Part shown: one piece after another, positions 5,599-40,191 of the stretch
Layout of the letters: every line of letters starts with the position of its first letter
How positions within the stretch are numbered: position 1 is the first letter of the stretch
Notes under the pieces: generated by a model
Told to the model about the DNA's origin: nothing
Database searches by the model: none
The model's input: only the letters and a program-made list of their open reading frames with translations
Origin: Planctomycetota bacterium
GTDB lineage: Bacteria > Planctomycetota > Phycisphaerae > Sedimentisphaerales > Anaerobacaceae
Direction of reading: 5' to 3'
Assembly: GCA_020350405.1 (NCBI GenBank)
Contig: CP070715.1
Location: forward strand, 606,856 to 657,124
Length of the DNA: 50,269 nt
Program-made: the position numbers and the translations under genes

Positions 5599-5633
5599 GG
5601 GAAAAAAGGGGGAGCTTTGCCTATGTGTCGTAA

Positions 5634-16390: not shown

Positions 16391-16487
16391 AATTTCTCTC
16401 CTTAATTTTAGATGCATTTCACGTTTTTCAGCTATAATAGTGTTAATTTGATTGGGAAAACTACGGGATTCGACCCGAGACTTGCCT

Positions 16488-17621
16488 ATGGACACAGCGA
16501 AGCGATTCAAACCCAAGACTATATTGTTGTGGAAGAAAGTGGCGGACCATCCTGAGGCCCAGCGAATTTTAGAGTTGTTTCCATCGGCCGAGATTCATGT
16601 AATAGAGCAACAGCGCGGCGGGCCTTTTCCAAATATGTCACTATCTCAGGCACTGCTAAGCGGAAAAAGGACCTTAATGATAGGGGAAACATCATCTTTT
16701 GTAGGGTATTTCGATGGGCAACCTGGAAGATTTTCACATTGTGATAAAGCGCGAAATGGGGTCGGCTCAAATGTTTGTTGCCAGCCCTACTACAAACTCG
16801 TTCCCATCTCGAACGGTTGTCCCTATTACTGCACATATTGCTACTTAGCGTTTGTTTATCGCAAGTTTGCTCCATTTATTAAGATTAATATCAATTACGA
16901 AACCATGTTTAAGCAAATACGAAAAACTTTGGCCTCATATCGAGGCAAAGTCAGCTTTAACATGGGCGAAATGCTCGACAGTCTCGCGCTCGACCACATA
17001 GCCGGTCTTACAAAGATTTTAGTTCCTTTTTTTGCAGGTTTTTCTAACGCTTATTTGATGTTGTTAACTAAGAGCAGCAACATTGATAACCTTTTAGCCA
17101 TTGAACCTAACGAGCATACTGTTGTTTCGTGGAGCCTGAACAGCCAAGATGCAATCGAAACATATGAGTTGGGTACAGCCAGTCTTGACGAGCGTATCCA
17201 CGCGGCCAAACAGTGCCAGGATCACGGCTATCGGATACGGTTTCGCATCGACCCAGGCATCCTGCACCAAGACTGGCAGGCTGGTTATGCCGATTTAATT
17301 CAAAGAACATTAACTGTCATCCGGCCGGAAAACATAACACTTGGAACGCTGAGGCTTCTGCCCGGCCATTTTCGCTTTGCTGCTGATGCGTATGGCAGTC
17401 GCGCTCGGAAGCTCTGCCAATGCAATTTCTTTAAAGGCGCTTCAGATGGCAAGCTCCGTTATCCTCGCGAGCAACGTATAAAATTTTACAATTTCTTAAT
17501 CGATAGCATTTGCAGCTTTGACAAGAATGTGTCTGTCAGCCTCTGCCGAGAGACACCTGAGGTTTGGAGTATTTTTAAGAACCAATGTGCGACCAAGAAA
17601 TGTAACTGTGTGGTTTGGTAA
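16488..17621 (+). CDS. Radical SAM protein, spore-photoproduct-lyase (SplB/COG1533) family
   Basis: NGCPYYCTYCYL (CxxxCxxC radical SAM cluster motif) in the context typical of SPL-like DNA-repair radical SAM enzymes. ATG 16488 is preferred over TTG 16452. Confidence 0.75.
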   Translation: MDTAKRFKPKTILLWKKVADHPEAQRILELFPSAEIHVIEQQRGGPFPNMSLSQALLSGKRTLMIGETSSFVGYFDGQPGRFSHCDKARNGVGSNVCCQPYYKLVPISNGCPYYCTYCYLAFVYRKFAPFIKININYETMFKQIRKTLASYRGKVSFNMGEMLDSLALDHIAGLTKILVPFFAGFSNAYLMLLTKSSNIDNLLAIEPNEHTVVSWSLNSQDAIETYELGTASLDERIHAAKQCQDHGYRIRFRIDPGILHQDWQAGYADLIQRTLTVIRPENITLGTLRLLPGHFRFAADAYGSRARKLCQCNFFKGASDGKLRYPREQRIKFYNFLIDSICSFDKNVSVSLCRETPEVWSIFKNQCATKKCNCVVW

Positions 17622-17650
17622 TAATAGCACTATGAGACCTTGTCGTGCCG

Positions 17651-18532
17651 TCATTTGTCGGTAGGTGTGTACAAACAGTGGCAATATGTGTACGTTTGGG
17701 TTTCATTCGTGTTTCTACTCGGATAAACATGTTGTGTTAACTCTTCATGGTGGCTTGATGTGCCTATCGCCCTGCTAAGTCGTCGCATAAGCGGTGCCTT
17801 AAACTTGTCCTGCAAAACCAGGATTCTTCCGTTGGGAGTACAGAGTTTCTCTATGTTTAACACACCGTTAGCAAGGTCAATTAATCCATTGTCTTCATCT
17901 AAAGGGACTATAGCATAAGAAAACGTTATTATGTCATATGTGCCCAAATTGCGTTTTACTCTTCGGAGTTGGTTTATGTTGCTGGGAAAGGCCTTTTGTA
18001 CGCTAATCGTTTGGCTGTGAACAATCCCTCTATTATGCTTTTTGCTGAAGGCGAAGTAGTCGCTTAACATACGTTGGGCGCTACCCAGACAGTAACCGGA
18101 GGTGTCATTCAGTATATAGGTTATCTTCACTGTCTCGGCCGTTGGCCAATTGTCTACGTCCTTATGATGTTCGAAGATGCAGGCAAGCAAGTCAGTAATC
18201 GCTAAAGAAGCGACAGCTGGGCCACAGCCGATATCAAGGATTCGCAACCTTCCAGACGTTAAGAGATTTAGGAAGTCGTTTGAAGTCATATAATCAAACA
18301 AACTGTTTTGTGCTTGGAAGTAGTGTCTGGTAAAAAACTTGACGAGAAAGGCCCTCATTTCTGCTGGATTTTTGGGGTAACGTGTAGCATCTTCCGAAAC
18401 TTTTCTCTTAGGCAGGCGGGCTATATGATATTTTAGCAGCGTTTTCACCGTAGCGCCGAGTTGCCATATTCCATCAGGGCATAATTCTTTTCGCATGCGA
18501 TTCTGCAATGTTCTGTTCATGGGCAGTGGCAC
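17651..18532 (-). CDS. Class I SAM-dependent methyltransferase, substrate unknown
   Basis: Motif I RILDIGCGPAVASLAI and a downstream acidic post-I residue (YILNDTS). No DPPY/NPPY or PCQ DNA-methyltransferase motifs seen. Spot GC is 30-37 percent. Confidence 0.65.
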   Translation of the reverse strand: MPLPMNRTLQNRMRKELCPDGIWQLGATVKTLLKYHIARLPKRKVSEDATRYPKNPAEMRAFLVKFFTRHYFQAQNSLFDYMTSNDFLNLLTSGRLRILDIGCGPAVASLAITDLLACIFEHHKDVDNWPTAETVKITYILNDTSGYCLGSAQRMLSDYFAFSKKHNRGIVHSQTISVQKAFPSNINQLRRVKRNLGTYDIITFSYAIVPLDEDNGLIDLANGVLNIEKLCTPNGRILVLQDKFKAPLMRRLSRAIGTSSHHEELTQHVYPSRNTNETQTYTYCHCLYTPTDK

Positions 18533-18579
18533 CTTTTACTTTTGCTGGAGAGACAAGAAGTGTAGTTTTGCCTCATTGG

Positions 18580-18870
18580 TCAGGGTCTAAAACTTCCTTG
18601 TGTGATATCACCCTTAGAAATGTTTTTTTCGATTACTTGGAGCCGGTATTCGCAAGAGAGGCTTTTTGTCTGAAGCGATTCAAGTTTTTGCTCAAAACTC
18701 TTCTGGCACTGAAGCAGCATCGTTACATCGCGCTGCAAAAGGTCAAGTTGGCGCTGTAAATTGACCCAGCTGCCCACAATCAGGAAAGCCAGAAATATCA
18801 GCTGTATCAAGATAGAAAGGTTTGCCGGTTTATTAAGACGCCATGATTTGCAATTAGTCTGAGCCATCAT
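18580..18870 (-). CDS. Small single-pass membrane protein with coiled-coil C-terminus (holin/spanin-like by architecture only)
   Basis: 96 aa. TM segment LSILIQLIFLAFLIVGSWV is followed by a heptad-like stretch QRQLDLLQRDVTMLLQCQKSFEQKLESLQ. Confidence 0.45.
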   Translation of the reverse strand: MMAQTNCKSWRLNKPANLSILIQLIFLAFLIVGSWVNLQRQLDLLQRDVTMLLQCQKSFEQKLESLQTKSLSCEYRLQVIEKNISKGDITQGSFRP

Positions 18871-18904
18871 TCAGTCCTAGCCGAGAATCCAGAATCGAAT
18901 TTTT

Positions 18905-19240
18905 TTAGACTGGCGCGTAGAAGACGTTCTTTTTACCCACTCTGCACATTACCACATAAGTTCCAGCCGTAAGTTGGCCTGTTTGTAGAAATGATTCCGC
19001 CAAGTTGGTCGCCTGCATCTCGCTGCCAATTTCAGTGGGAAGCGAGCCCGGCTGGCCTATCTCTACAGCCCGGACGTTGTAGACGTTATATGAAGAATTA
19101 CTTTTGACCTTAATGGCCCAGATGGTTGCACGAGCGCCAGGTGAAGCCACGATCGATGTCTCCGTATTTAGTTCTGAACTCTTTCGGGCAAGTCTTTCCA
19201 GTGCCTGCTGAGTATTTTCGGTATTTGTCTCTTCTCTCAT
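18905..19240 (-). CDS. Hypothetical protein, 111 aa (island member)
   Basis: ORF lies 5 nt downstream of the 609-aa gene on the same strand. No recognised motif. Confidence 0.5.
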   Translation of the reverse strand: MREETNTENTQQALERLARKSSELNTETSIVASPGARATIWAIKVKSNSSYNVYNVRAVEIGQPGSLPTEIGSEMQATNLAESFLQTGQLTAGTYVVMCRVGKKNVFYAPV

Positions 19241-19245
19241 AGCCC

Positions 19246-21075
19246 TTAGGTCCTTCGGCGGACGATTTTCAAGTTAGTACACTGTTTTTCAAAATCCATA
19301 TGTACCCGCGCTATCCAGTGGAGACTGCGATTATCACTCCTGCAGCTAAGCAGGTCCCGGCTCTCAGGGCTTGTAGTTACCCTGTCGCCGACTCTGTAAT
19401 CAAATGCCAGGCAAGGCGTCTGGATATCAACCGTCTCGATTACTGCAGATGCAGCCCCGGCCTTTTCACGGATGAACTCATACAAGGCGGTAGAATCATC
19501 GACCTCGTCCGGCACACCCAGGGATTCATCCGGTGTGTTTTTGAAAATACTGCAATGCGAAACTTGGCGGAACTTGAACCAGCGAGGCAGCGTAATGATC
19601 TGGTCAACCACGGGCACAGTCGAATTAACAGGTCCATCGGCAACTACGCAAGTGAGTCTTTCGTCGCTGACTACGGATGCTGTTATTCTAAACTTAAGTA
19701 CCCCCTTTAAGGCTGCCACCCATGTATCAGCATCAAGATAGTCGCTGCTCAGCCACACTCCACATTCGTTGAGCAGGTTGTTAAAAGCATAGAGATACTG
19801 CCACCAATGCAGGCCATCATCGAATGATACCTGCAGAAAATAGCCTAATGATTTACCCTGTTTGTCGGTGGTAAGGGTCGGCCAGAAGCGCCTGCGCCGA
19901 CGGCCGAAATTGCCGCTCTGGAAGATTTTTGAAAAGTCAAATGCATCGCCTTGATTGTATGGTGAGCCGCTGTAGTCGCCTGCCTCATTAAGACACCATT
20001 TGCGAAATACATCCTTTACCTTGTAGAAATCAGCATTTGTCGAGGGTGAAAATTTGTCGTAGTCGGTGTCCTCGCCGGCAGGGTCCCATGCCTTGACCAG
20101 ATCAAACGTTGCTTCGTAGGTTTTGAAGTCACCTTGGCCGACATATCTGTGTGTTATCGGCCAGAAATTTTCCCTGCTGTGCAAACGTGCAATATTTGTC
20201 TTTGAAATGCTGAATTGTTCGCCCTGATGCTGGCAGTTTAACTCAACTACCCTGCCTTTGCCCGGTCGGTAGAACACAATCGCTTGTTCAGCCCCGGTTG
20301 GCAAAGGCCGAGGGACAAACTTGAATTTCAGCCCTATTCTATCGCAGCACCGCTGCAACGCCTCTATCAGGTCTAATCCGGTGACATCGAGGTCGCGAAC
20401 TACTTGACTTTCGGTTAGCGTCAGCAGTTGCTCAATGCTTGGCGTATGCAATTGGCCGCATGGCAGATACTCACAGAGCAAATAGTGAATTACTTCGGCA
20501 TAGCTCCAAAGTTTGCCCGCCGACGGCTCGGCACAGAACACCGTGTAACTGCAGCCGTTGTGTTCTATTGGCTCGGCCGAAGCATTGGCCTTTCCGTCTT
20601 CGTTAAAAGCGGTGTCCACACCAGACAAGAACAAAGTCGAACCATCAAAGTTGCTGACTCGCTGGCCATATGCAGTGATGCGCTTTAAGTTAGCACTAAA
20701 ATCCTTGGCTATGATTTCCACGCTCTCACCGTTAGGGCCTAACTGTGTCTCGACACTTTCTATTTGGCCTGCAAAAAGAGGAAAGCTAAAAGCTGATGCG
20801 CCAGGCGGGGTGCCATTGTAGACCTGACGAATACAAACGCGTTTGCCAATTGCGACTTTCGGCTCTATTTCTTCGATAGATAGCAGCTCCGCTTGTGGGT
20901 ACGCGGCAGGGTTATAAGCCAGTCTGGCCCAGCTAAACTCTGTCCAGCGTCCATCCACAATTTCTATAGGCTCAAGCCAGGGACACAGTTCACCGTCAAG
21001 CAAAATCAAAAATGCGGGTGCAGGCAACGTCAGTTTCGTTTGAGCTGATTGGAAAAAGTCGATTCTGTTGGACAT
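19246..21075 (-). CDS. Phage-like large structural protein, possibly a gpD/hub- or nozzle-like tail component
   Basis: 609 aa. The N-terminal segment PLFAGQIESVETQLGPNGESVEIIAKDFSANLKR resembles the N-terminal pattern of gpD/VgrG-like hub proteins. This is weak and by eye only. Confidence 0.6.
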   Translation of the reverse strand: MSNRIDFFQSAQTKLTLPAPAFLILLDGELCPWLEPIEIVDGRWTEFSWARLAYNPAAYPQAELLSIEEIEPKVAIGKRVCIRQVYNGTPPGASAFSFPLFAGQIESVETQLGPNGESVEIIAKDFSANLKRITAYGQRVSNFDGSTLFLSGVDTAFNEDGKANASAEPIEHNGCSYTVFCAEPSAGKLWSYAEVIHYLLCEYLPCGQLHTPSIEQLLTLTESQVVRDLDVTGLDLIEALQRCCDRIGLKFKFVPRPLPTGAEQAIVFYRPGKGRVVELNCQHQGEQFSISKTNIARLHSRENFWPITHRYVGQGDFKTYEATFDLVKAWDPAGEDTDYDKFSPSTNADFYKVKDVFRKWCLNEAGDYSGSPYNQGDAFDFSKIFQSGNFGRRRRRFWPTLTTDKQGKSLGYFLQVSFDDGLHWWQYLYAFNNLLNECGVWLSSDYLDADTWVAALKGVLKFRITASVVSDERLTCVVADGPVNSTVPVVDQIITLPRWFKFRQVSHCSIFKNTPDESLGVPDEVDDSTALYEFIREKAGAASAVIETVDIQTPCLAFDYRVGDRVTTSPESRDLLSCRSDNRSLHWIARVHMDFEKQCTNLKIVRRRT

Positions 21076-21092
21076 TAGAATCCCTAGAGCTG

Positions 21093-21782
21093 CTATACAG
21101 CTTCAGCGCCTACAATATCAATTGTGTCGGAACTCCCAGTACCGAATTGAAATTGTATCTTAGCTGATGAAGCATCCTCTGTGCCGGCTGCATCCTCAAC
21201 CTTTATGGCAAATAAATATGTATCTTTGTCAAGCATGTTACTCACGTAACTGTAGAACAACCGGCCCGCGTAGCTTGTTGAGACAATTGCATTTGAGTAA
21301 TCGATCTGGCCGGTTCCGCTATCATAGTAAAGCTTTAAAGACTCCGGCCGTGACTTTTGTTCGATGGGGCAATAGAACCATAGCAATTGAATCTTATTAC
21401 CACCTACCTGTTCGGCCCTTGCGGCAAGAATGCTATTCGGCCTCGGCTTGGCCATATCTCCATTGGCATCTAGGGAAAGCTTAACTGAGGCGGCTAAGGT
21501 ATACTCTTGAGCACCGCAATTGTTGGCCCGGCGAATTACATAAAAATATGTCGACTTGCTACTATGCTGAAGATAGTTGGGTGGTTGAATTTGGGAAGCA
21601 TCTGCTTTGGCTACAGCCAGTATATTAGTAAAATCAATAGTCTCAATACTGCCGCCCCGATAAAGTATAGAACAGCTGGCAATCCGAGACCAGAACCAGC
21701 CCAGAGTCAACACCGTGCCCAGCTTAAACGCGTTGCTTGTCTGCCCGGCAAACAACGCTTCTCTCAACCAGTATATCTCCAT
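21093..21782 (-). CDS. Phage-like structural protein with C-terminal FN3/Ig-like domain (paralogue of 23885..24661)
   Basis: Shares KLYYDSGTGQIDYSNAI and YLFAIKVEDAAGTEDASS with QLYSDGGSGEIDYNSPL and YKFAVKVTDEGGSESGVS of the 258-aa ORF. Start overlaps the upstream stop as TAATG. Confidence 0.6.
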   Translation of the reverse strand: MEIYWLREALFAGQTSNAFKLGTVLTLGWFWSRIASCSILYRGGSIETIDFTNILAVAKADASQIQPPNYLQHSSKSTYFYVIRRANNCGAQEYTLAASVKLSLDANGDMAKPRPNSILAARAEQVGGNKIQLLWFYCPIEQKSRPESLKLYYDSGTGQIDYSNAIVSTSYAGRLFYSYVSNMLDKDTYLFAIKVEDAAGTEDASSAKIQFQFGTGSSDTIDIVGAEAV

Positions 21783-22273
21783 TAGCTTGGCGTCCTAGTC
21801 AATGTAGATTCCTCATCCGTAGGAGTATGGGTCAGGATAACTGTTTCGCCATCATCATCATAGTAGTCAATTGTGCCCGTAACCTTGTTCTGTATGGCTT
21901 TGTTTAAAAGCAATTTGGCCGCCTTCTCGAAAAGCGAACTGCCTGCGAACCTGTTCTCGATTGAAAATGTTGCAAGTACCGCGTTGACCGTCTCGCCGTC
22001 AATAGTAGCCCCAACCAGGACCACAGAATAGTCATGCCCTTTCGCATAGAAAGCATCGGCACTTAAATCTATCTCGCAATTGTGAACACCAGTCAAGCCA
22101 TCAAAGTCCTCGGTATCCGTTACACCCGACGTGCTTTCACTGTCGTCATCATCTTTGTAAACTTTAATAGTCCCGTTGGTAGCACGCGTAATGCTTGCTC
22201 CGTTCTTATCATTTGTGTCCCAACAGAAATACACTGTCGAGCCTTCTTTGAAATCACCTAAATAAAATCCCAT
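21782..22273 (-). CDS. Phage-like structural protein, unknown function
   Basis: ATG at 22273 (MGFYLGDFKEG...) overlaps the LamG gene stop as TAATG. The track ORF start at 22309 would overlap by 37 nt. Has an acidic stretch KDDDDSESTSGVTDTEDFDG. Confidence 0.6.
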   Translation of the reverse strand: MGFYLGDFKEGSTVYFCWDTNDKNGASITRATNGTIKVYKDDDDSESTSGVTDTEDFDGLTGVHNCEIDLSADAFYAKGHDYSVVLVGATIDGETVNAVLATFSIENRFAGSSLFEKAAKLLLNKAIQNKVTGTIDYYDDDGETVILTHTPTDEESTLTRTPS

Positions 22274-23013
22274 TACGCTAATCCCCGCTTTCCTTGTGCC
22301 AGAGAACACCTAACTAACAACCGGCATACTGTTTTTAATCCCTCTGTCCCATAGCCATTGTTATACAAATAAGCCCACTCATCCGATGATAACAATCTAT
22401 CAAATACAATCATGCAGTCCATAGCACCGTCAAAATATGCATGCTGGCTGAGTCTGCTGCCGATACATAAATCCTCATTGTTTGATATGTCATTGATTTG
22501 CATGATTGGGGCAGATATTGCGACCTGGCTTGCATTTATGTATATCTTAAAAGTCCCGTCGCGGTCAAATTCAACTGTGCAAAAATACCAAGCGTCATCA
22601 TTGTACGTCGAAGATGTGCTTTTGCTGACACTATTGCTTCCTTTGCTGATTCTAGCCCACACCTTGCCGCTTTGCATCCAAATATCCCAACCGCTGTAGT
22701 TACCCTTTTTACGATGGTTTATAAAAAATCCTGTTCCGGTCATAGTTGTTCTGAACCAAAAAGCTACAGTAAAATCCTTGCCGACAAAGTCCCAAGCGTC
22801 ATGGTCCGAAACGGTGATGTGGTCACTCGTACCATTAAAGTCAAAAGCACCGTTCAAATAGGGTGGTTGCCCGCTGCCGATGTGCATAAGTGCTGTGTTT
22901 CGCTGTGAGCTACCATCGTGTGAATTGTCCGAGCTATCCTCGACATTGGTATCTGCTGCATTTTCATTTAGTCTCCAACGAGATATACAGTTTGCGGATA
23001 AATCAATCGCCAT
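22273..23013 (-). CDS. LamG (concanavalin A-like lectin/glucanase, Laminin_G_3) domain protein
   Basis: WRLNENAADTNVEDSSDNSHDGS ... NGAFDFNGTSDHITVSDHDAWDF..DFTVAFWFRT ... FDGAMDCMIVFDRLLSSDEWAYLYNNG is the standard Laminin_G_3 layout. Confidence 0.75.
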   Translation of the reverse strand: MAIDLSANCISRWRLNENAADTNVEDSSDNSHDGSSQRNTALMHIGSGQPPYLNGAFDFNGTSDHITVSDHDAWDFVGKDFTVAFWFRTTMTGTGFFINHRKKGNYSGWDIWMQSGKVWARISKGSNSVSKSTSSTYNDDAWYFCTVEFDRDGTFKIYINASQVAISAPIMQINDISNNEDLCIGSRLSQHAYFDGAMDCMIVFDRLLSSDEWAYLYNNGYGTEGLKTVCRLLVRCSLAQGKRGLA

Positions 23014-23075
23014 TATGCTAACCTTTTCCGCGTCACCAGCTGTTTAATTCTATTCCTGTGGACCTGACGCTTCAC

Positions 23076-23864
23076 TTACGCCTCCTCTGTCCAAGTCCCA
23101 TTTTTCGCTATAGTCACCCAGTCACCATTTGAGTCGGCCGCAACAGCAATGCTCTCACCGATCGCGTTTGCTGCCTTGTACTTACCAGCGGTTTGACCGC
23201 TGTTGTCTCGGATTGCGGCCGTGCCGGGATCGATGCGTAGTTCTTGTCCTGCTTGGACAGCAAATGTAAATACCGTTCCTTCCAGTGCTGATGCAGGTAG
23301 TGTAAGCGTAACCAGCCCTGTCGCACCGAGATTGCTGTGAATACTGCCCGACTCGGCCACCGCGAGCGTGTCATCACTGGTGTGCGCTTCAATTTTCTTC
23401 GTAACCCCGCCAGCCTCATACGGTATAACAAAATTATGACCCACACGAGAATCCGTTATCGATGTGACATCGCCGTTTGACGTACTCGCTACCGCCAGCC
23501 GAATATGCGGCGTCGTTGCCATATCAGGAAAGCCGTTGTACTCGTTTGTTACAAGATTGCCGCTTGAGTCCAGATAAACATAGATATTGGTTTTGTCATC
23601 TTCTAAAGTATTACCCGACGAGCCGTCGTAGCTGACCAGTTCTGTACCTATCCAGAACTTGCCCTTTTTGACGCCAATATCCAGCCCACCCTCGCCATAG
23701 ACTCTTAAGTCATTTGCTCGCCTTGTACCAAGCAGTAGCCGATAAAGTAATTTCCTGAATTGCAGATAATAAGGCGATGTGCCGGTTGGTATATATTCGA
23801 CGCCGGTCTCGCTGTCAGACTGGATATTTAACAATTCATTGTCGGACGGGTATACTTCAGCCAT
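23076..23864 (-). CDS. Phage-like structural protein, tail-fibre/spike-like (tentative)
   Basis: 262 aa, beta-rich and Gly/Thr/Ser-rich. Its position in the tail part of the module supports the call. No firm motif. Confidence 0.55.
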   Translation of the reverse strand: MAEVYPSDNELLNIQSDSETGVEYIPTGTSPYYLQFRKLLYRLLLGTRRANDLRVYGEGGLDIGVKKGKFWIGTELVSYDGSSGNTLEDDKTNIYVYLDSSGNLVTNEYNGFPDMATTPHIRLAVASTSNGDVTSITDSRVGHNFVIPYEAGGVTKKIEAHTSDDTLAVAESGSIHSNLGATGLVTLTLPASALEGTVFTFAVQAGQELRIDPGTAAIRDNSGQTAGKYKAANAIGESIAVAADSNGDWVTIAKNGTWTEEA

Positions 23865-23884
23865 AATATTCTCCTTGTAATTAT

Positions 23885-24661
23885 TTACAAGACACTCAAT
23901 ACCAATTGATTTTCTTGTTTGTCGAATGAAAAAATGCTCATCCGTTCGGCGGGCCGCGCGGCCGGTATCACTGTTAATTGCCCTGTCTCGCTAACCCCAC
24001 TTTCACTGCCCCCTTCATCAGTGACTTTGACAGCAAATTTATATATACCTGTTTCTAAAAGTGGGCTTGTCCATTCAAGTACATCGGCATCAAAGCCGAA
24101 TTCTCCCCTGCCGAAGACGCCTTTGCCAAAACCAACCGCTGCCGAACCGTCAAAGCCAAAGTCACTCGTGCCAAATCTGGCCATTCCGAACCCTGTCTTA
24201 TCCTGCCAGGCAGGCCAGACTCTTACGGGTGAATCATTAAGCGGACTGTTATAATCTATTTCCCCGCTGCCACCATCGGAGTAAAGTTGAACTGTCGCGC
24301 CAATGGGTACTTTCTGGCTGCGCAGCATGTCTATCTTCGCGCGGCCACATTGGCCCATCGATGACTCAATCTCGCTGCTAAAATCAGTATTTGCCTGTTC
24401 AGCTTCGACCGCGAAGACCTCAATTCGCACCGCTGTCTCCAAAGAAGTGGGTATCTGAACCATCATTTGTCGCTGCTGACCATCAAGCGTTGACCCCGCA
24501 TACCAACCGTTGACGTAAACCTGGTAGAACATGTTGGACAGGTGCGAATGCCATTTTACCAAAGCAATTCGCGGGCACCCGGCATAACTTCCGTCTGGCC
24601 AGATACCACCAGGCAGTTCGAACGCCCGTACCTTTTCTATGCCGCTACTGACAAGTGCCAT
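23885..24661 (-). CDS. Phage-like structural protein with an FG-rich Gly/Phe segment and a C-terminal FN3/Ig-like domain
   Basis: TGFGMARFGTSDFGFDGSAAVGFGKGVFGRGEFGFD (six FG dipeptides in 36 aa). C-terminal YKFAVKVTDEGGSESGVSETGQLTV. Confidence 0.6.
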   Translation of the reverse strand: MALVSSGIEKVRAFELPGGIWPDGSYAGCPRIALVKWHSHLSNMFYQVYVNGWYAGSTLDGQQRQMMVQIPTSLETAVRIEVFAVEAEQANTDFSSEIESSMGQCGRAKIDMLRSQKVPIGATVQLYSDGGSGEIDYNSPLNDSPVRVWPAWQDKTGFGMARFGTSDFGFDGSAAVGFGKGVFGRGEFGFDADVLEWTSPLLETGIYKFAVKVTDEGGSESGVSETGQLTVIPAARPAERMSIFSFDKQENQLVLSVL

Positions 24662-24666
24662 GCCCG

Positions 24667-25038
24667 CTAAACCACCAATTGCGTATAAACGATTTCATAA
24701 TCAATAACCACCCCGTTGCCACTTGTCCTGTCGTCCATTACCCTGAAGGTATCCATCCGAAGATTATCAAACTCCCCGTCACCGCTAATCACCAACTTGT
24801 GTGTATTACCATTTATGAAAGCTGATATTGCCGCGATCCTGTTATTCATTTGCGATTGGCTTTTCGCGCGCAGCACACCGCTCTGCTTCACCTTCCTGCT
24901 GCGCTTACCCAGATCAATACTGAGTACGCCGTCCAGACCCGGGACCGCTCTCTCTACTGAGTCCTGGCGAACACTGCCCAGCTCAATCTCAAGCTCTTCT
25001 TCGTCGAATATTTTTTGTCCATCCAAAGTGACGCTCAT
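24667..25038 (-). CDS. Small phage-like structural protein (123 aa)
   Basis: ERAVPGLDGVLSIDLGKRSRKVKQSGVL loosely recalls the DNA-circulation-N/baseplate-hub-associated motif (..P..dG....DLG...r.i...G). Weak. Confidence 0.5.
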   Translation of the reverse strand: MSVTLDGQKIFDEEELEIELGSVRQDSVERAVPGLDGVLSIDLGKRSRKVKQSGVLRAKSQSQMNNRIAAISAFINGNTHKLVISGDGEFDNLRMDTFRVMDDRTSGNGVVIDYEIVYTQLVV

Positions 25039-25056
25039 CTCTGTTCCTGTCCCAAA

Positions 25057-25713
25057 CTAATCCCGTGCGAGCCTTACAGATGACCCGACCTTAGCGATCT
25101 CAGCCACTCCATCGCTATCAACGTCAATACTAAGATGACACCGTTCTCTTGCTCGCTGAAAGAGTTTCTTGTAGTACAGGCTCTTCTTCCAGAAATTCTC
25201 ATCTTCGGCCTTACTGGCTAACATTGCATAAACGCTTGAAACAACCGCAAAGACCGATGCTCTCTTCAAAACCTCTGTATTCAAAACATCCTCTACATCA
25301 ATCTCGCTTGCGGGGTCACCGGGCCTGATACTAAAGTACTCGGTCAGCGTGAGCCCGGCTTCATTGGCCTGGGGCTCAAACGTGCTGATCCGGTAGGATA
25401 TATCAGTAGCAGCTGGCGGCGCTACGGGATCGTCATCCGAATCTGCCCTGATTACCGAAACGGTAAGCTGGGTGGTCGAGTCTACCGAGACTATCTCGTA
25501 CGCACCGTCCAATAAGGCGCTTGAAGATTGTAGATTTATAACTTGCCCCGCCGAAACCTGCGCACTTACAAAATCTGCATCGTTCGCGGTGAATGTCGTC
25601 CCGCTCAGCGTACCACCTGTCCCTGACACAAGTACTTGCCACGGCAGATGCAACTCGCCGAACAACACCGGCTCGTATTTCAGAATATCGACATCTTTTG
25701 AAAAACAAACCAT
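25057..25713 (-). CDS. Phage-like protein immediately downstream of the capsid gene, possible head-tail adaptor/connector
   Basis: 218 aa with a beta-rich N-terminal half and a helical C-terminal half (EVLKRASVFAVVSSVYAMLASKAEDENFWKKSLYYKKLFQRARER). The assignment rests on gene position. Confidence 0.5.
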   Translation of the reverse strand: MVCFSKDVDILKYEPVLFGELHLPWQVLVSGTGGTLSGTTFTANDADFVSAQVSAGQVINLQSSSALLDGAYEIVSVDSTTQLTVSVIRADSDDDPVAPPAATDISYRISTFEPQANEAGLTLTEYFSIRPGDPASEIDVEDVLNTEVLKRASVFAVVSSVYAMLASKAEDENFWKKSLYYKKLFQRARERCHLSIDVDSDGVAEIAKVGSSVRLARD

Positions 25714-25798
25714 TTTCTTTTAAACCCTTCTTTCTATGAGTTGCCGGGACAGGCGCCCAAAGACTATACCAAACAGAGTGCCTCCGGGCGCCTTACGT

Positions 25799-25821
25799 CA
25801 AGACGCATTAGTTGCGTCTTG
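25799..25821. promoter_or_regulatory. Perfect 9-bp stem / 5-nt loop hairpin directly downstream of the capsid gene
   Basis: CAAGACGCA-TTAGT-TGCGTCTTG. A second inverted repeat, GGCGCCC (25752-25758) / GGGCGCC (25786-25792), is adjacent. No U-tract follows on the transcribed strand. Confidence 0.4.
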
Positions 25822-25841
25822 GGCAGTTCCCCTACTACTTA

Positions 25842-26996
25842 TTAGCTGGTAGTCAAGCCGCGAATGAGTCCATGGGCTCCTTCGTTCTTGATCTCCAAAG
25901 TATATTCGCCAATCACCTCGCCGCATTCATAGTCACCGCCACTTGCCAGCGGCTTGAAGTGGAAGCTCCGTCCCCCTAACGGCAATACGCTAATACGGGA
26001 TGAGTCCAACAGCAGAGCCGCGTCCTGAGGTATCCATCGCGTCGTAACAATTCTGCACACACCGAAATCACTTTCGTAGATGTTGATCATATCGGTGAAG
26101 GTGGTATCGCCGGCCGCATAGCTGCGGCTGTTGGCCGTGAAGGCATTTATCTTTCTCTTCTGGAATCCCCCGACGACAATCAGGTCCACATTGCCGTTGC
26201 TGTTGCCCCAAACCTGCCTGAGGACGTAGTTAATCTTGGCTTCGTCAAGGTCATTGCCCGTCGGAAAACCACTGTCGCCGGTATGAAAGGCATTCGTCGT
26301 CATGTGCTGAATAATCCCCTTCATCGACCTTCTCGCGGATCCGCTCCCTTCTGGGTTGCTCGTCGGTTGGCCGCCGTTAATTACCGTATTTTCCAAGTCC
26401 CGGATCAGTTCACGCAACCGCTCTTGTTTTTGATAGTCCATCTCATCAGCTAGACCCAGTTGGTTTGCCGCCATATCTGTCCCACTGACTTCCACCGTCG
26501 CGCTGAATATCTGCGTGTAGTTACCCAACCTGCTGCGATTGGTGAATCTTGCATCCGGTTTGTCTGCCCCTTCGAGAGCCGCATTTCCGAGAATGTTTAT
26601 CACCTGGTTGTCTGCTAAGTCCTCCGCTGTGGTGCCGGCATAACCACGAACTACCGTCAACGTGTCATCGTTGATTCCGGTTACGAGCATCAGTTCTTCT
26701 GACCCCTCTACCTGAATCTGATCGCCTATGCGGAACCTGCTGCCGTTATCAACTACAAAATCAGTGTCAGCTGCAGGGTCGGTATAGGTACTATCGTTGA
26801 TGGCGTCCTTGTTTGGTAGCAGTTCGTCTTCAAGCCATTCGTGGTGTGTGCTTCTGGCTTCTCTCATCGGGTCACCCAAAGCATCCAGCAACGGAGTCTC
26901 ATAAGGTGAAATTATCCCAATTAAATCCGATACATCCTCAGCCAATTCCGGTAGAGTTATACCCGCTGAATAAGTTGCTTTTCCAGTAAAAGCCAT
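25842..26996 (-). CDS. Major capsid protein, HK97-fold, DUF5309/SU10-like family
   Basis: The N-terminal signature DVSDLIGIISPYETPLLDALG....ARSTHHEWLEDEL matches the conserved start of DUF5309-type coat proteins. 384 aa. Sits directly after the scaffold gene. Confidence 0.7.
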   Translation of the reverse strand: MAFTGKATYSAGITLPELAEDVSDLIGIISPYETPLLDALGDPMREARSTHHEWLEDELLPNKDAINDSTYTDPAADTDFVVDNGSRFRIGDQIQVEGSEELMLVTGINDDTLTVVRGYAGTTAEDLADNQVINILGNAALEGADKPDARFTNRSRLGNYTQIFSATVEVSGTDMAANQLGLADEMDYQKQERLRELIRDLENTVINGGQPTSNPEGSGSARRSMKGIIQHMTTNAFHTGDSGFPTGNDLDEAKINYVLRQVWGNSNGNVDLIVVGGFQKRKINAFTANSRSYAAGDTTFTDMINIYESDFGVCRIVTTRWIPQDAALLLDSSRISVLPLGGRSFHFKPLASGGDYECGEVIGEYTLEIKNEGAHGLIRGLTTS

Positions 26997-27047
26997 TTGT
27001 TCTTCTCCTTGTATTTATGTATTGTCTCTGTCAGTTCTTCATTAAAA

Positions 27048-27578
27048 TCAAACAAAATTTCTTCGCAGCTTCAGATACTCTTGTAAATCTGTTCGGTTGC
27101 CCGTTGCTGCCGCTCTCTTTGCTGCTCTTTCAAGGATTGCCTGGTCGCCTGTAACGCGGTCCTTGGCACCTGCTGTCCTTTTGACCGTGGCAGCCGTCTC
27201 TTTGTCGTTACCGAACAGATATTGCTTTTCTTTTTTCAACTGTTCAATCACACTGTCTAAATCTGTCTCGGTTTCATCTTTTACTCTGGCCTTGGCGATT
27301 AACACAGCTGCTTCTAGGTCAACTGTCCCCGCAGCGACTAATTTTCGCATTAGCTTTTGCTCAACCTGAATACTGCTCAATTTCTCAACCATTCCGCCAA
27401 TCTGAGATTTCGCCTGGGCTAATTGCTCAGACAAGGTTTCAACTTTTTTCTCGGCACTCTGTGCCCTTTTGCGATAACGGATCGATTCGGCTACCGGAAC
27501 AAGTTTCGAGTCGTCAACATCGCCCTGTCCCGCTTTTGTCTCTGATAAAACATTTCCCTCTATGTCAATCTGACTCAT
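27048..27578 (-). CDS. Phage scaffolding protein (coiled-coil)
   Basis: 176 aa, highly charged and helical (KRAQSAEKKVETLSEQLAQAKSQIGGMVEKL...). Located between portal and capsid genes. Confidence 0.6.
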   Translation of the reverse strand: MSQIDIEGNVLSETKAGQGDVDDSKLVPVAESIRYRKRAQSAEKKVETLSEQLAQAKSQIGGMVEKLSSIQVEQKLMRKLVAAGTVDLEAAVLIAKARVKDETETDLDSVIEQLKKEKQYLFGNDKETAATVKRTAGAKDRVTGDQAILERAAKRAAATGNRTDLQEYLKLRRNFV

Positions 27579-27603
27579 AAAATCTTTTAATTAGACTAAA
27601 GCC

Positions 27604-29139
27604 TTAACTTTCTTTCACAACCTCATAGCCTAATTCTCTGAGCACCTGCTCAGCAGGGACGCCCAGTTCTTTCTTGATTTGGGCTTCCTTTAGCTTCTCG
27701 AGCACATTTTCAGGCAATGGGCTCGGGAAAATAACATCGATCATTCTGTCTGCACTGCTGGTTTTATAAATGCCGGCTGTGTTAAGTATCTCAAGAACCT
27801 TCCCGCAAATCTTTTTCAGCCCCTCACCGTAAGTAAATATCTTTCGGTCATTCTTTGAGAGCATCCCTATAAGTGTCAATCTGAGAGCCACCCCACTCGT
27901 AAGATGACCTAATCTGGTTTTGATTACCCCAGCTACCACCGGCGTTACACCGCTGGCCTTGTCCATCGCCTCTCTGATTTCTCTGATATGTGAATCCTCG
28001 CTCGGTGTATCTGCGTCACCGCCAAATTCTTTAATTGTTGCCTCCGGATTGTCGGTGTGCCACATTCTCCCTGGTGCCACTGGCTTGTCTTCAAAACCCT
28101 CTATCCCCTTACCCAAATACATCTTAAACGATTGAAAGGTAATCCTGCTCGCCCTGTCACTTAACCTCGTATTGAGCTCATCCTGTAGGGGTATCAGGGG
28201 TTCTACATCACTTGCCCCTTCGTAGTAGTATGGCTGAGCTATATTCTGTATATGTACCACCGGCAAAATTCCCCACGGCAATTCACCTTCCGCCACAAGC
28301 TGCTTGTTCTCATATCTCTGCCACGCCGTTGCCGACGTTATCTCAGTCACCTCAACCACTTCTTGCTCACAACCGCTTCTTTTACCTTGCCAGAGCAGTC
28401 TACCCAAAAAGGAGCCTTTCTTGTCGAGGGAATTCTTCCTCTGGTGGAAGTGCTGAATATAATATCTGATCTTTGTGTAGTCGTTCTCATCAAGGATAGG
28501 CAGTGCTCTCGGTGCTTCAATCAGTTCCAAGCCGATTGTTTGTGTCAATTGCAGCACATCTTCGAGCGGGAGAGTTTGAGAGGAGGAGGAAATGGATTGT
28601 TCTAAGATCTCATTGCCAGGCCTGACGAGACAATCGACAAAACCGTAAACACCTCCAAGCACTGCCATATCGTGAAAAAAACCAATAGCACCGTTAGCCG
28701 AGAACACCGCCTTTAATATAGACTCTATTTCTGCTCGTTTCCGGCTATCCGGTGCCCTGGAAACAAAACTTATCGGTTTTCCAAACAAAAAATCCACTGC
28801 AGCATTTATGCGCCACCCGATATCATTCTCGATAACGACTTCTTTTCGTTGCACCTCCCCCGCGCACCTTCCGCCAAAGACACCTCCCTCTGCCGAGTGA
28901 ACAAGCCCTGTTATTCGTGTAGGTAGTCCGTGTTCCTGCGCCTGAAGATAGCATCGACCCACCTCATTTACTTTCCTGTACAGGGAACTATGTCCGCTCA
29001 CCTCACGCATTGGGTTTGTATAATAGTCCCACAGCTTCGCAAAGTGCCTCTGGGTATCTACCGACCGTTCATCAACAAGCCACTCAATGTAATCCGCCTC
29101 GAGTTGCGGGTCCTTAAAAATACCAACGTCAAATCCCAT
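27604..29139 (-). CDS. Phage portal protein, SPP1 gp6-like
   Basis: 511 aa. Has HFAKLWDYYTN and ENDIGWRINAAVDFLFGKPISF (the portal N-terminal pattern N.ia.....v..l.GkPi). GGGAG RBS upstream of ATG 29139. Confidence 0.7.
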   Translation of the reverse strand: MGFDVGIFKDPQLEADYIEWLVDERSVDTQRHFAKLWDYYTNPMREVSGHSSLYRKVNEVGRCYLQAQEHGLPTRITGLVHSAEGGVFGGRCAGEVQRKEVVIENDIGWRINAAVDFLFGKPISFVSRAPDSRKRAEIESILKAVFSANGAIGFFHDMAVLGGVYGFVDCLVRPGNEILEQSISSSSQTLPLEDVLQLTQTIGLELIEAPRALPILDENDYTKIRYYIQHFHQRKNSLDKKGSFLGRLLWQGKRSGCEQEVVEVTEITSATAWQRYENKQLVAEGELPWGILPVVHIQNIAQPYYYEGASDVEPLIPLQDELNTRLSDRASRITFQSFKMYLGKGIEGFEDKPVAPGRMWHTDNPEATIKEFGGDADTPSEDSHIREIREAMDKASGVTPVVAGVIKTRLGHLTSGVALRLTLIGMLSKNDRKIFTYGEGLKKICGKVLEILNTAGIYKTSSADRMIDVIFPSPLPENVLEKLKEAQIKKELGVPAEQVLRELGYEVVKES

Positions 29140-29680
29140 ACTAGGCTCCCATTTCTCGGGGTTCCCATCTTGCTATCTTTTCGCAAAATGAAGGCTCTGG
29201 AGCAAAGCTCTGACCACCTCAGGGCAACTATCATCGCTGCCACCATTTGTGCAACCCGCGCAATTGTTGCGAAAAAAAGAACGGTTTCATCATCGCGTTT
29301 TGAGCTAAGTCCTTAGGGTACAAGAAGTAAAATTTTCTCAAATTTTTCGATGATACCACCCAACCCACGCGCACTTTTGATTGAAACGCCGTTTCCCCTC
29401 CGGCGCTGCAAACGTTGAAAACGAATACCAAATAATTTTGCTCTGTCGGTAAGGACAGGATGCGTAGCTCTTCTCAGCAGATGCGGGGCAAGAGTTCCAA
29501 GAGGTGCTATGTGATGAGGATAATGAGAAATTGCACGCCGGCCGCAGCCTTAAAACTCGCATTCTTGCCTATGACAGACCGCGACAAAACCGAACAAGTG
29601 AAAGTCTAGGCAAAATAAGCTAACTCTAATGCTTCTTTAATTTCTCTCCCAATGGGCCTGCTGACACATCGCTGCTTGGA

Positions 29681-39933: not shown

Positions 39934-40191
39934 CCGTCTTCTCCTCCTTAAAACCTCTTCTCGCCCGAACTTCGCCTGACGAGAGTATTCCAGAAACAAG
40001 CGGTGCTCTAACCCTGACAACGTTACTATATAATAGCCGCTCTTATTTTGTCAAGCGTATTTTTTTGAAAATTCCGTCAAAAATCAAGGCTTACGTCACC
40101 GTTACACTGTTAGCGCCATGTAAGCCCTTAAAGAACAACCACTTAAGGCAGGTAAAAAATCTTGCTTTTTTTCAAAAAATGTGGCAAATAT

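What the first reader, a model, noticed from the sequence alone, without database searches (positions are those of the whole stretch)
17651..29680. Phage head plus short-tail structural island with no terminase, integrase, replication or lysis enzyme, bounded by chromosomal genes on both sides
Fourteen co-oriented, intact ORFs run from 29139 down to 17651. Junctions range from 1-nt overlaps to a 128-nt gap.

I recognise an SPP1-gp6-type portal, a coiled-coil scaffold and a DUF5309/SU10-type HK97-fold capsid protein. Structural-looking ORFs follow: a possible adaptor, a small hub-associated-like protein, two FN3-like paralogues, a LamG protein, a fibre-like protein and a 609-aa hub/nozzle-like protein.

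Nowhere in the window is there a large or small terminase, integrase/recombinase, prohead protease, repressor, replication gene, tape measure, sheath/tube or endolysin. The flanks are acyP/GAF-PP2C/cmk on one side and radical SAM/lipoprotein/DUF503/purM-purF on the other. They are inside the window, so the missing functions are not simply out of view.

An intact, compact, structural-only module is what a domesticated particle system (gene-transfer-agent-like, capsid-forming satellite-like or other phage-derived nanomachine) would look like. A very recently truncated podovirus-like prophage is the null hypothesis.
Basis: partly seen in the sequence, partly recalled or inferred. Interest (0 to 1): 0.8.

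Follow-up and report, generated by a model that had tools for sequence, protein, structure and literature searches.

The report
Domesticated phage-particle genes in Planctomycetes
A compact set of phage head and short-tail genes with no DNA-packaging enzyme beside it has been inherited vertically in hundreds of sediment planctomycete species, with its capsid protein more conserved than core metabolic enzymes, so the bacteria probably build a phage-like particle for their own use (most likely a gene-transfer-agent-like particle) that has not been described.

Summary
Window 15812-29139 (- strand) encodes an SPP1-type portal, a scaffold, an SU10/DUF5309 capsid protein and tail-like genes. One of these is a 609-aa protein whose partial model matches gp27/VgrG/gpD-type hubs. 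The whole 50-kb window holds no recognisable terminase, integrase, protease, tape measure, sheath or endolysin.

The "fresh prophage remnant" null is refuted. The island occurs in at least 291 species-level genomes, named Planctomycetota, Phycisphaerae or Sedimentisphaerales in their records. Gene order is kept, often at the same chromosomal site. The genes are intact: capsid 80/80, portal 62/65. dN/dS is 0.09-0.25, the same as flanking housekeeping genes. Capsid identity (median 87.5%) exceeds that of the neighbouring PfkB kinase (75.8%), and purM/purF are 77-81% against the window. The receptor-binding slot is swapped freely between species.

No close relative is in phage databases: the best isolate capsid is 31% identical, and IMG/VR holds one, chromosomal, hit.

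- ORF 14 is an optional methyltransferase-like accessory gene, not a structural gene.
- A conserved lipoprotein (15812-16390) is the island's real last gene.
- The related Ig-like pair is g06/g10, not g06/g07.

Best reading: a domesticated particle, GTA-like, with its terminase unlinked as in Brachyspira BhGTA. That terminase could not be searched for here.

The parts
29250..29386 (-). Conserved upstream noncoding module. Box2 lies at ~29363-29386 (TTTCAATCAAAAGTGCGCGTGGGT). Box1 lies at ~29250-29275 (TTTTCGCAACAATTGCGCGGGTTGCA), about 110 nt upstream of the portal ATG. Probably the island's promoter region.
   Evidence: Box1 is found 80-150 nt upstream of the portal in 43 of 60 species, with box2 113-115 nt further upstream. 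The same module is dispersed elsewhere in these genomes, so it is not specific to the island. The 74-aa ORF at 29338-29562 overlaps it and is probably spurious.
27604..29139 (-). Portal protein (511 aa), SPP1 gp6 type
   Evidence: PF05133 2.3e-13; phrog_64 1.4e-19. 67-97% identical across 82 loci. Intact in 62 of 65 species.
27048..27578 (-). Scaffolding protein (176 aa), coiled-coil
   Evidence: PF06810 9e-7 (below cut-off); phrog_194 and phrog_2303, head scaffolding. Position between portal and capsid. Intact in 78 of 78.
25842..26996 (-). Major capsid protein (384 aa), SU10/DUF5309 HK97-fold family
   Evidence: PF17236 2.5e-87. 84-96% identical in the 80 best species genomes. Median pairwise identity 87.5% against 75.8% for the neighbouring PfkB kinase. 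dN/dS 0.03-0.09.
25057..25713 (-). g04 (218 aa), probable head-tail adaptor or head-completion protein (inferred from position only)
   Evidence: No family or PDB match. Always follows the capsid gene, also in distant islands where the capsid is 52% identical (30% identity). dN/dS 0.13.
24667..25038 (-). g05 (123 aa), small beta-rich neck or tube-like protein (weak hint only)
   Evidence: Single-sequence AlphaFold model is poor (pLDDT 48). Foldseek hits are not significant (best E 0.018) but are mostly tail-tube, terminator and neck proteins. Conserved in 69 loci.
23885..24661 (-). g06 (258 aa), Ig/FN3-like protein with a Gly/Phe-rich middle segment
   Evidence: No family or PDB match. Shares an Ig-like C-terminal motif with g10 (E 3e-4). 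Not related to g07.
23076..23864 (-). g07 (262 aa), second most conserved protein. The N-terminal ~160 aa are fixed and the C-terminal ~100 aa are exchanged in some species, which suggests a fibre or anchor protein.
   Evidence: 70-95% identical across loci. C-terminal part replaced in L055, L080 and L082. Only a non-significant PDB hit to a long tail fibre (E 0.44).
22273..23013 (-). g08 (246 aa), LamG/concanavalin-like putative receptor-binding protein, in the variable slot
   Evidence: PF13385 1.2e-20. Present in only 11 of ~76 loci. Replaced elsewhere by Peptidase_S74-chaperone, beta-helix, GH172 or other proteins.
21782..22309 (-). g09 (163-175 aa), fibre-like protein with a conserved N-terminal ~45 aa anchor and a variable remainder
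   Evidence: Median alignment coverage is only 26% of the protein across 64 loci. Relatives start at the ATG that gives 163 aa.
21093..21782 (-). g10 (229 aa), Ig-like tail protein preceding the hub. In most species it is the C-terminal part of a ~510-aa LamG fusion.
   Evidence: 39-83% identity. Intact in 55 of 55. No real PDB match.
19246..21075 (-). g11 (609 aa), tail hub of the gp27/VgrG/Mu gp44/gpD type (N-terminal ~270 aa)
   Evidence: Foldseek PDB and BFVD top hits are nearly all hub or spike proteins, from a low-confidence model. 1102 homologues, all unannotated. No hit in 50,697 phage genomes. Intact in 49 of 49.
18905..19240 (-). g12 (111 aa), small beta-rich protein after the hub (possible spike tip; inferred from position)
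   Evidence: No family match. A paralogue with its own copy of the upstream module lies elsewhere in L015.
18580..18870 (-). g13 (96 aa), single-pass membrane protein followed by a coiled coil
   Evidence: The hydrophobic helix and the motif GSWVNLQRQLDLLQRDV are conserved in all 30 orthologues inspected.
17651..18532 (-). g14 (293 aa), methyltransferase-like accessory gene; optional, not structural
   Evidence: Motif ILDIGCGPA. PADLOC hit to the N-terminal, non-RT part of the DRT UG35 model at 5.6e-8, and to a methyltransferase model at 7e-4. Follows g13 in 14 of 55 loci.
16452..17621 (+). Spore-photoproduct-lyase-like radical SAM gene, opposite strand; optional insert that travels with g14
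   Evidence: PF20903 3.5e-30. Found in 23-24 loci between g13/g14 and the lipoprotein.
15812..16390 (-). Lipoprotein (192 aa from the internal ATG), the conserved last gene of the island. Together with g13 it forms a spanin-like membrane pair (inferred).
   Evidence: Directly follows g13 (median gap 33 nt) in 35 of 55 loci. Lipobox L-A/V/T-G-C found in 15 of 23 orthologues by a strict pattern. dN/dS 0.21.

Best explanation
The island is a host-maintained (domesticated) phage-derived particle module of a Phycisphaerae/Sedimentisphaerales-type planctomycete. It is not a prophage.

Proposed mechanism:
1. Portal, scaffold and the SU10-type capsid protein assemble a procapsid.
2. g04-g07 complete the head-tail junction.
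3. g10-g12 form a short, tape-measure-less tail tip around a gp27-type hub.
4. A freely exchangeable cassette (LamG here; beta-helix, GH172 or S74-chaperone proteins elsewhere) binds surface glycans of target cells.
5. The membrane protein g13 and the lipoprotein act at the envelope, in release or anchoring.

Because the head is the most strongly conserved part, the particle most probably carries cargo. The most likely mode is gene-transfer-agent-like: host DNA is packaged by a terminase encoded elsewhere in the chromosome, as in Brachyspira BhGTA.

Shown here: gene content, vertical inheritance, purifying selection, receptor-cassette swapping, and absence of a linked terminase. Inferred: particle formation, the roles of individual tail proteins, DNA cargo, and an unlinked terminase.
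For: - Distribution: relatives in at least 291 species-level genomes, all of the best 80 with the same gene order; 4576 capsid homologues.
- Fixed chromosomal site: GAF-PP2C/acyP upstream and DUF503-341aa-purM-purF downstream recur in L002, L079, L093 and L095. In those loci housekeeping proteins are only 48-84% identical to the window's. A PfkB kinase neighbour is found in 42 loci.
- Selection: dN/dS is 0.09-0.25 for every island gene against 0.08-0.25 for flanking genes, with matching dS of 0.19-0.72 against 0.19-0.63.
- Relative conservation: capsid median identity 87.5%, portal 77.3%, g07 79.7%, against PfkB 75.8% in the same species set; purM/purF are 77-81% against the window.
- Intactness: capsid 80/80, scaffold 78/78, g10 55/55, g11 49/49, portal 62/65.
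- Codon usage is fully host-like: r 0.725 against a control of 0.752.
- The variable receptor-binding slot holds 41 ORF clusters among 54 loci.
- No close phage relatives: the best isolate capsid is 31% identical and sits next to TerL; g11 has no hit; IMG/VR has one, chromosomal, hit.
- Precedent for an unlinked terL in a recognised GTA: PMC9662315.
Against: - No terminase (large or small) was found in the window or in about 2.2 Mb of related loci. The one exception is an inserted TerS fragment in a single lineage. The rest of the genome could not be searched.
- No endolysin or holin was recognised.
- There is no expression, particle or packaged-DNA evidence.
- The portal is truncated in 3 of 65 species while the other genes stay intact. 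This could mean the portal is dispensable, or that the island is decaying locally.
- Most tail assignments rest on position or on low-confidence models (pLDDT 46-48).
Confidence: 0.6

Rival explanations
1. A particle that carries no DNA. The bacteria make a head-plus-tail particle that is empty or loaded with protein or another cargo, and use it as a killer particle (bacteriocin-like) or delivery device. No terminase exists anywhere in the genome.
For: - No terminase is seen in the window, in 80 species loci, or in the flanks out to ~10 kb.
- The rapidly exchanged receptor-binding cassette is what strain-targeting weapons show.
- The portal is truncated in three lineages while the other genes stay intact.
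Against: - Known killer particles (tailocins) have discarded the head. Here the capsid is the most constrained gene.
- The portal and scaffold are also conserved.
- HK97-type procapsids of tailed phages normally mature on DNA packaging (established knowledge).
- An unlinked terL has a precedent in BhGTA.
Confidence: 0.2
2. A helper-dependent satellite, like a capsid-forming PICI. The island makes its own capsids and tails but relies on a helper phage's terminase and lysis genes, and moves between cells.
For: - A structural-only gene set without a large terminase resembles capsid-forming satellites.
- One lineage has a TerS-containing cassette beside the portal.
Against: - No integrase, att-like repeats, tRNA, replication or regulatory module.
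- The same chromosomal locus is kept across species whose synonymous sites are saturated.
- dS equals that of the flanks.
- The TerS is confined to one lineage. Its relatives are generic phage TerS proteins, and it sits in an insertion that truncates the portal.
- Almost absent from 2.9 million viral contigs.
Confidence: 0.05
3. A recently truncated or decaying podovirus-like prophage: the first reader's null.
For: Phage-type head genes lie next to chromosomal genes, and many ORFs have no known family.
Against: - Conserved and intact in hundreds of species.
- dN/dS of 0.03-0.25.
- Capsid more conserved than purM, purF or PfkB.
- Host-like codon usage.
Confidence: 0.02
4. A mobile element or temperate phage that spread recently by horizontal transfer. 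On this view the high capsid identity reflects recent spread, not selection.
For: - The flanks differ in some genomes: L001 has sulfatase and aconitase; L006 has a DinG helicase.
- The upstream module is also found with mobile HNH-AP2 genes.
Against: - Island dS tracks flank dS. Both are 0.2-0.7 against the closest relative and saturated against L079 and L006.
- Identity of the less constrained island genes falls to 40-60% in step with host divergence.
- The ancestral flanks recur in distant species.
- No mobility genes.
Confidence: 0.03

Closest known systems
Brachyspira hyodysenteriae GTA (BhGTA / VSH-1, Brachygtaviriformidae)
   Same: - A chromosomal ~16-kb cluster of head, tail and envelope or lysis genes without terL.
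- In BhGTA, terL is a conserved single-copy gene outside the cluster.
- Co-diversification with the host.
- Almost no sequence similarity to known phages (PMC9662315).
   Different: - No sequence homology was tested or is expected.
- BhGTA has a 65-nm flexible tail and a recognisable endolysin. This island has no tape measure and no endolysin.
- BhGTA synteny is not kept across the genus. Here synteny is kept across hundreds of species.
- BhGTA is proven experimentally. This island is not.
Rhodobacter capsulatus RcGTA-type GTAs (Rhodogtaviriformidae)
   Same: - A vertically inherited, purifying-selected head-tail cluster lacking integration and replication genes.
- Includes a gp27-like hub.
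- Accessory genes elsewhere in the genome.
   Different: - The RcGTA cluster itself encodes TerS, TerL, a prohead protease, a tube and a tape measure.
- Its capsid is of another HK97-fold family.
- The present island has a scaffold instead of a protease, and no tube or tape measure was recognised.
Phages with SU10-type (PF17236/DUF5309) capsid proteins, e.g. Sporosarcina phage Lietuvens and Clostridium phage CB452P1
   Same: The same capsid family, and the portal-scaffold-capsid order.
   Different: - Only 31% capsid identity.
- Those phages carry TerL (plus HNH or TerS) immediately upstream of the portal.
- They have long contractile tails (sheath, tube, tape measure, baseplate J) and integrase or replication genes.
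- None has a g11 homologue.
Tailocins (R- and F-type pyocins, monocins)
   Same: Chromosomal phage-derived structural clusters kept by the host, with exchangeable receptor-binding proteins.
   Different: Tailocins have no head genes. Here portal, scaffold and capsid are present, and the capsid is the most conserved gene.
Capsid-forming phage satellites (cf-PICIs)
   Same: They encode their own capsid, portal and connectors but no large terminase.
   Different: - Satellites carry an integrase, replication and regulation genes and a TerS.
- They lack tails and are mobile.
- None of these features applies here.

Membership tests
Gene transfer agents (viriforms; criteria as in PMC9662315) | Caudoviricete-like structural gene cluster in the chromosome, without genes for its own replication or integration | tested here: met
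Gene transfer agents (viriforms; criteria as in PMC9662315) | Co-evolution with the host: vertical inheritance under purifying selection | tested here: met
   dN/dS and dS equal the flanks. The locus is conserved. The genes are intact. No formal co-phylogeny test was run.
Gene transfer agents (viriforms; criteria as in PMC9662315) | A terminase that packages DNA (in the cluster, or elsewhere as in BhGTA) | tested here: inconclusive
   None in the window or in ~2.2 Mb of related loci.
Gene transfer agents (viriforms; criteria as in PMC9662315) | Particles package random host DNA, less than the size of the cluster, and transfer it | not testable with these tools
   Needs particle purification and sequencing.
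Gene transfer agents (viriforms; criteria as in PMC9662315) | Sequence homology to an established GTA family (RcGTA, BaGTA, BhGTA, Dd1, VTA) | not tested
   The capsid belongs to PF17236 and no match named a GTA protein in the Pfam, PHROGs or NCBIfam scans, but the island proteins were never compared directly with GTA sequences. If it is a GTA, it would be an independent family.
Tailocin | Tail-only particle with no capsid genes | tested here: not met
   Portal, scaffold and capsid genes are present and conserved.
Capsid-forming satellite (cf-PICI) | Integrase or att site, replication module, TerS, mobility | tested here: not met
   None found. The locus is fixed over saturated dS.
Intact or recently defective prophage | Patchy distribution, neutral decay, foreign composition, neighbouring lysogeny, replication or terminase genes | tested here: not met
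Encapsulin nanocompartment | HK97-fold shell without portal, scaffold or tail, next to a cargo enzyme | tested here: not met
   Portal, scaffold and tail-like genes are present.
SU10-type capsid family (PF17236/DUF5309) | Capsid protein matches PF17236 above the gathering score | tested here: met
   293.5 bits against a cut-off of 24.1. This is a protein-family membership only. No tail homology to any phage was found.

The most novel reading that the evidence does not exclude
These genomes contain no terminase at all. On that reading the island specifies a new kind of phage-derived machine: a capsid with a hub-tipped short tail and swappable receptor binders, which is either loaded with non-DNA cargo or loaded by an unknown mechanism. 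It would be conserved across a whole order-level lineage of Planctomycetota, with shorter head-only relatives (L219 type) in other bacteria.
Probability: 0.15. Interest if true: 0.9.

Novelty: new variant of a known kind. Interest (0 to 1): 0.72.

Why it matters
Only a handful of independent phage domestications into gene-transfer-type particles are recognised, and none is in Planctomycetota. I found no paper linking Phycisphaerae or Sedimentisphaerales to such a particle.

This lineage is abundant in anoxic sediments and is mostly uncultured. A particle system kept in hundreds of its species, with a capsid more conserved than purine-biosynthesis enzymes, implies a strong and unexplained benefit. 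It may also be a major route of gene exchange, or of antagonism, in sediments.

The architecture separates a nearly frozen head from a hypervariable targeting cassette. That makes it a natural system for asking what selects for heads in domesticated particles.

The missing terminase makes one question directly testable: is the packaging motor unlinked, as in BhGTA, or absent?

Tried and rejected
1. Exact look-up of the window's capsid: not on record.
2. Profile searches of g04, g05, g06, g07, g10 and g11 against PDB sequences gave nothing real. The g10 hit is to a designed beta-trefoil. g14 as a single sequence also gave nothing.
3. The AlphaFold models of g11 (41-sequence alignment, 72-100% identity) and g05 (single sequence) were poor, at pLDDT 46 and 48. 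Only the g11 N-terminal hub resemblance is used, with caution.
4. Rfam and the promoter/terminator consensus scans of the island gave nothing above chance.
5. I suspected that the conserved upstream module marked an island-specific regulon that might lead to the terminase. A metagenome scan showed the module is dispersed: only 10 of 120 sites are portal-linked, and 34 precede HNH-AP2 genes. The idea was dropped.
6. A 160-aa ORF in L017 behind the module looked TerS-like by eye. It has no Pfam match and is followed by a sulfatase, so it was rejected.
7. A genuine TerS beside the portal in L025/L090/L216 is a lineage-specific insertion, not a conserved component.
8. tblastn with two phage TerL proteins against all loci found nothing. 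This is an insensitive test.
9. An alignment of diverged capsids was too variable for the locus finder. The single distant capsids P0361 and P0365 have no IMG/VR relatives.
10. Literature searches found no prior description.

Full report
**Observation**

Family searches confirm an SPP1-type portal (PF05133, 2e-13), a weak scaffold match (PF06810, PHROG scaffold families), an SU10/DUF5309 major capsid protein (PF17236, 2.5e-87) and a LamG protein (PF13385). The other ORFs match nothing in Pfam, PHROGs or NCBIfam.

All other sizeable ORFs of the 50-kb window are housekeeping genes or have no match. None is a terminase, integrase, protease, repressor, replication protein, tape measure, sheath or endolysin. 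There is no tRNA gene.

The only island ORF large enough to hide a large terminase is the 609-aa g11. Its AlphaFold model is poor overall (pLDDT 46) but moderate over residues ~20-270. Foldseek against both PDB and BFVD returns almost exclusively central hub and spike proteins: eCIS hubs, VgrG, Mu gp44, phage protein D, Mu gpP.

**Host and distribution**

The capsid protein has thousands of homologues. The 120 best 90%-identity clusters are 88-100% identical to it, and those that carry a name are called Planctomycetota, Phycisphaerae or Sedimentisphaerales. A scan of one genome per GTDB species found 291 genomes encoding a relative. The best 80 are 84-96% identical.

Around the capsid gene, the same genes recur in the same order and with almost the same lengths: portal, scaffold, capsid, g04-g07, g10-g13.

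Core genes are intact in nearly all non-redundant species loci: capsid 80/80, scaffold 78/78, g10 55/55, g11 49/49, portal 62/65.

**Vertical inheritance**

- In L002-L005 and L010 both flanks are the same as in the window.
- In L079 and L095 the upstream GAF-PP2C (with acyP and cmk in L079) recurs. In L079, L093 and L095 the downstream DUF503, 341-aa ORF and purM recur, with purF in L093 and L095. In these genomes the housekeeping proteins are only 48-84% identical to the window's.
- In 42 loci the upstream neighbour is a PfkB kinase.
- No locus has a terminase next to the portal.
- Island codon usage correlates with the window's housekeeping genes (r 0.725) as well as two halves of the housekeeping set correlate with each other (r 0.752).

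**Selection**

| Comparison | Island genes | Flanking genes |
|---|---|---|
| dN/dS against the closest relative | 0.09-0.25 | 0.08-0.25 |
| dS against the closest relative | 0.19-0.72 | 0.19-0.63 |

Against L079, which carries the island at the same locus, synonymous sites are saturated for both island and flanks. There the capsid dN (0.088) is below that of the rpsA-like gene (0.099).

Median pairwise identity in one and the same set of 39 species:

| Protein | Median identity |
|---|---|
| Capsid | 87.5% |
| Portal | 77.3% |
| PfkB neighbour | 75.8% |

In a 27-species subset, g07 is 79.7%, g11 is 68.6% and PfkB is 75.2%. Against the window, purM and purF are 77-81% identical.

The null hypothesis of a fresh or decaying prophage is therefore refuted. 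So is recent horizontal spread as the cause of the similarity.

- **Variable slot.** The region between g07 and the hub is 1.7-4.7 kb long and holds 41 ORF clusters among 54 loci. In the window it holds the LamG protein. Elsewhere it holds proteins with a Peptidase_S74 chaperone, a beta-helix or GH172 domains, or a LamG-g10 fusion.
- **Partly exchangeable proteins.** g09 keeps only a ~45-aa N-terminal anchor. g07 keeps ~160 N-terminal residues and swaps its C-terminus in some species. This is the pattern of exchangeable receptor-binding proteins on a fixed particle.
- **Envelope pair.** g13 is a conserved single-pass membrane protein with a coiled coil. The gene that follows it directly in 35 of 55 loci is a lipoprotein with a lipobox found in most orthologues. 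In the window this lipoprotein is at 15812-16390. I read the two as a spanin-like envelope pair. This is an inference.
- **Accessory insert.** The window's ORF 14 has a methyltransferase motif and matches the methyltransferase-like N-terminal part of DRT UG35 models. Together with the oppositely oriented SPL-like radical SAM gene, it is an optional insert between g13 and the lipoprotein. It is accessory, not structural.
- **Paralogy.** g06 and g07 are not related at profile level. g06 and g10 share an Ig-like motif.
- **Tail length.** No tape measure or sheath is recognisable, so a short tail is inferred. A short tape measure hidden among the unassigned ~220-260-aa proteins cannot be excluded.

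**Upstream region**

A ~150-nt noncoding module lies 80-150 nt before the portal start in 43 of 60 species. It consists of box2, a 113-nt A/T-rich spacer and box1. A diverged copy is in the window at about 29250-29386.

I tested whether the module marks an island-specific regulon. It does not. Of 120 metagenomic sites with box1, only 10 precede a portal, and 34 precede HNH-AP2 homing-endonuclease-like genes at varied places. It is probably a common promoter-type element of these genomes. One copy drives a g12 paralogue in L015.

**Relation to phages**

- The best capsid match among 50,697 phage genomes is 31% identical (Sporosarcina phage Lietuvens). There, as in Clostridium phage CB452P1, TerL lies just upstream of the portal, and Lietuvens has a long contractile tail.
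- g11 has no phage match.
- IMG/VR holds a single locus. It is a chromosomal fragment whose portal is truncated by a small inserted cassette containing a generic TerS.
- A search of 50%-identity representatives shows that intermediate capsid relatives exist, at 35-63% identity. One such type (L219-L221: capsid 52%, portal 38%, g04-like 30%) is a shorter portal-capsid-g04 island followed by chromosomal genes, with no hub. The family is therefore wider than the lineage studied here.

**Mechanism**

I conclude that this is a domesticated phage-derived particle system. Heads are costly and are discarded in tailocins. Here the head is the most constrained part, so a cargo-carrying particle is most likely.

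The best-supported model is a GTA-like particle whose terminase is unlinked. The published precedent is BhGTA of Brachyspira: its 16.3-kb structural cluster lacks terL, and a conserved single-copy terL lies elsewhere (PMC9662315).

I could not search the rest of the genome. A two-query tblastn over ~2.2 Mb of related loci found no TerL, but that test is insensitive.

The main rival is a particle without DNA, acting as a killer or a delivery device. It is not excluded, and it would be the more novel outcome. Satellite, remnant and recent-transfer explanations are contradicted by the data above.

**Novelty**

Searches of the paper library found nothing linking Phycisphaerae, Sedimentisphaerales or DUF5309 to GTAs or domesticated particles.

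I rate it a new variant of a known kind. It appears to be an independent, undescribed domestication in Planctomycetota with an unusual architecture: an SU10-type head, a hub-tipped tail with no recognised tape measure, a hypervariable targeting cassette, and no linked terminase or endolysin.

Particle formation and cargo remain to be shown.

Noticed in passing
window 29250-29386 (-); L006 519-655 (-); L015 ~913 (-); L017 1002-1140 (-); metagenome loci L096-L215: A ~150-nt conserved noncoding module (two related 24-26-nt boxes 113 nt apart, with an A/T-rich spacer) precedes the portal. It is also dispersed through these planctomycete genomes, most often in front of ~175-aa HNH_3+AP2 homing-endonuclease-like genes inserted at varied sites (34 of 120 sites). 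29 further sites precede low-complexity repeat sequence.
   Followed up: partly
L015 545-~830 (-): A paralogue of the small post-hub protein g12 (48% identity) lies between ispA and dxs, about 7 kb from the island, behind its own copy of the upstream module. In L006 and L022 the module remains at that spot but the gene is gone.
   Followed up: partly
L001 8779-9393; L025 2271-3386; L090/L216/L217; L065 828-1637: The portal gene is N-terminally truncated in 3 of 65 species while all other island genes stay intact. In CP070830.1 only 204 aa remain next to a sulfatase. In L216 388 aa remain. These could be assembly artefacts, local decay, or a sign that the portal is dispensable.
   Followed up: partly
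L216 8671-10447 (equivalent to L090 ~5000-6722): In one lineage a small divergent cassette abuts the truncated portal. It holds four small ORFs, one of them weakly HTH_Tnp_1_2-like, plus a bona fide Terminase_2 small subunit. The TerS relatives are generic phage proteins, not conserved in Phycisphaerae. It looks like a fragment of another mobile element.
   Followed up: yes
L219 263-7212; L220; L221; L218; L222: More distant capsid relatives (47-63% identity) exist. The L219 type has a portal (38%), a 58-aa ORF, a capsid (52%), a g04-like protein (30%) and a few small ORFs, then chromosomal genes (TM2, DeoC, rhamnogalacturonan lyase). It has no hub or fibre genes. This may be a second, head-only kind of island. 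The contig starts at the portal, so an upstream terminase cannot be excluded.
   Followed up: partly
window 16452-18532: An optional two-gene insert: g14 (methyltransferase-like, matching the N-terminal non-RT part of DRT UG35/UG25 defence models) and a divergent SPL-like radical SAM gene (faint pVip match). It sits between g13 and the lipoprotein in about a quarter to a half of species. It may be a defence or modification cargo.
   Followed up: partly
L020 (JAIVYN010000011.1) and protein P0191: Island-bearing contigs are labelled 'Candidatus Aegiribacteria sp.' and 'Coxiella sp. DG_40'. Many 'uncultured Pirellulales' labels occur as well. These are probably binning or automatic-naming errors rather than real occurrences outside Phycisphaerae.
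   Followed up: no
window 47469-50237 (-) and 39358-40020 (-): A 922-aa protein with LamG, Chlamydia-PMP repeats and a DUF4957-like region, and a PEP-CTERM protein. The same LamG family (PF13385) as the island's receptor-binding-like g08 is used by a host surface protein.
   Followed up: no
window 5634-6182 (-): A 182-aa ORF with a weak, sub-threshold Amidase_2 (N-acetylmuramoyl-L-alanine amidase) match. It is the only peptidoglycan-hydrolase-like hit in the window and lies ~10 kb from the island. No link to the island was shown.
   Followed up: no
window 29338-29562 (-): The 74-aa ORF between acyP and the portal overlaps the conserved noncoding module and has no homologue beyond the closest relatives (65% identity). 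It is probably not a gene.
   Followed up: partly
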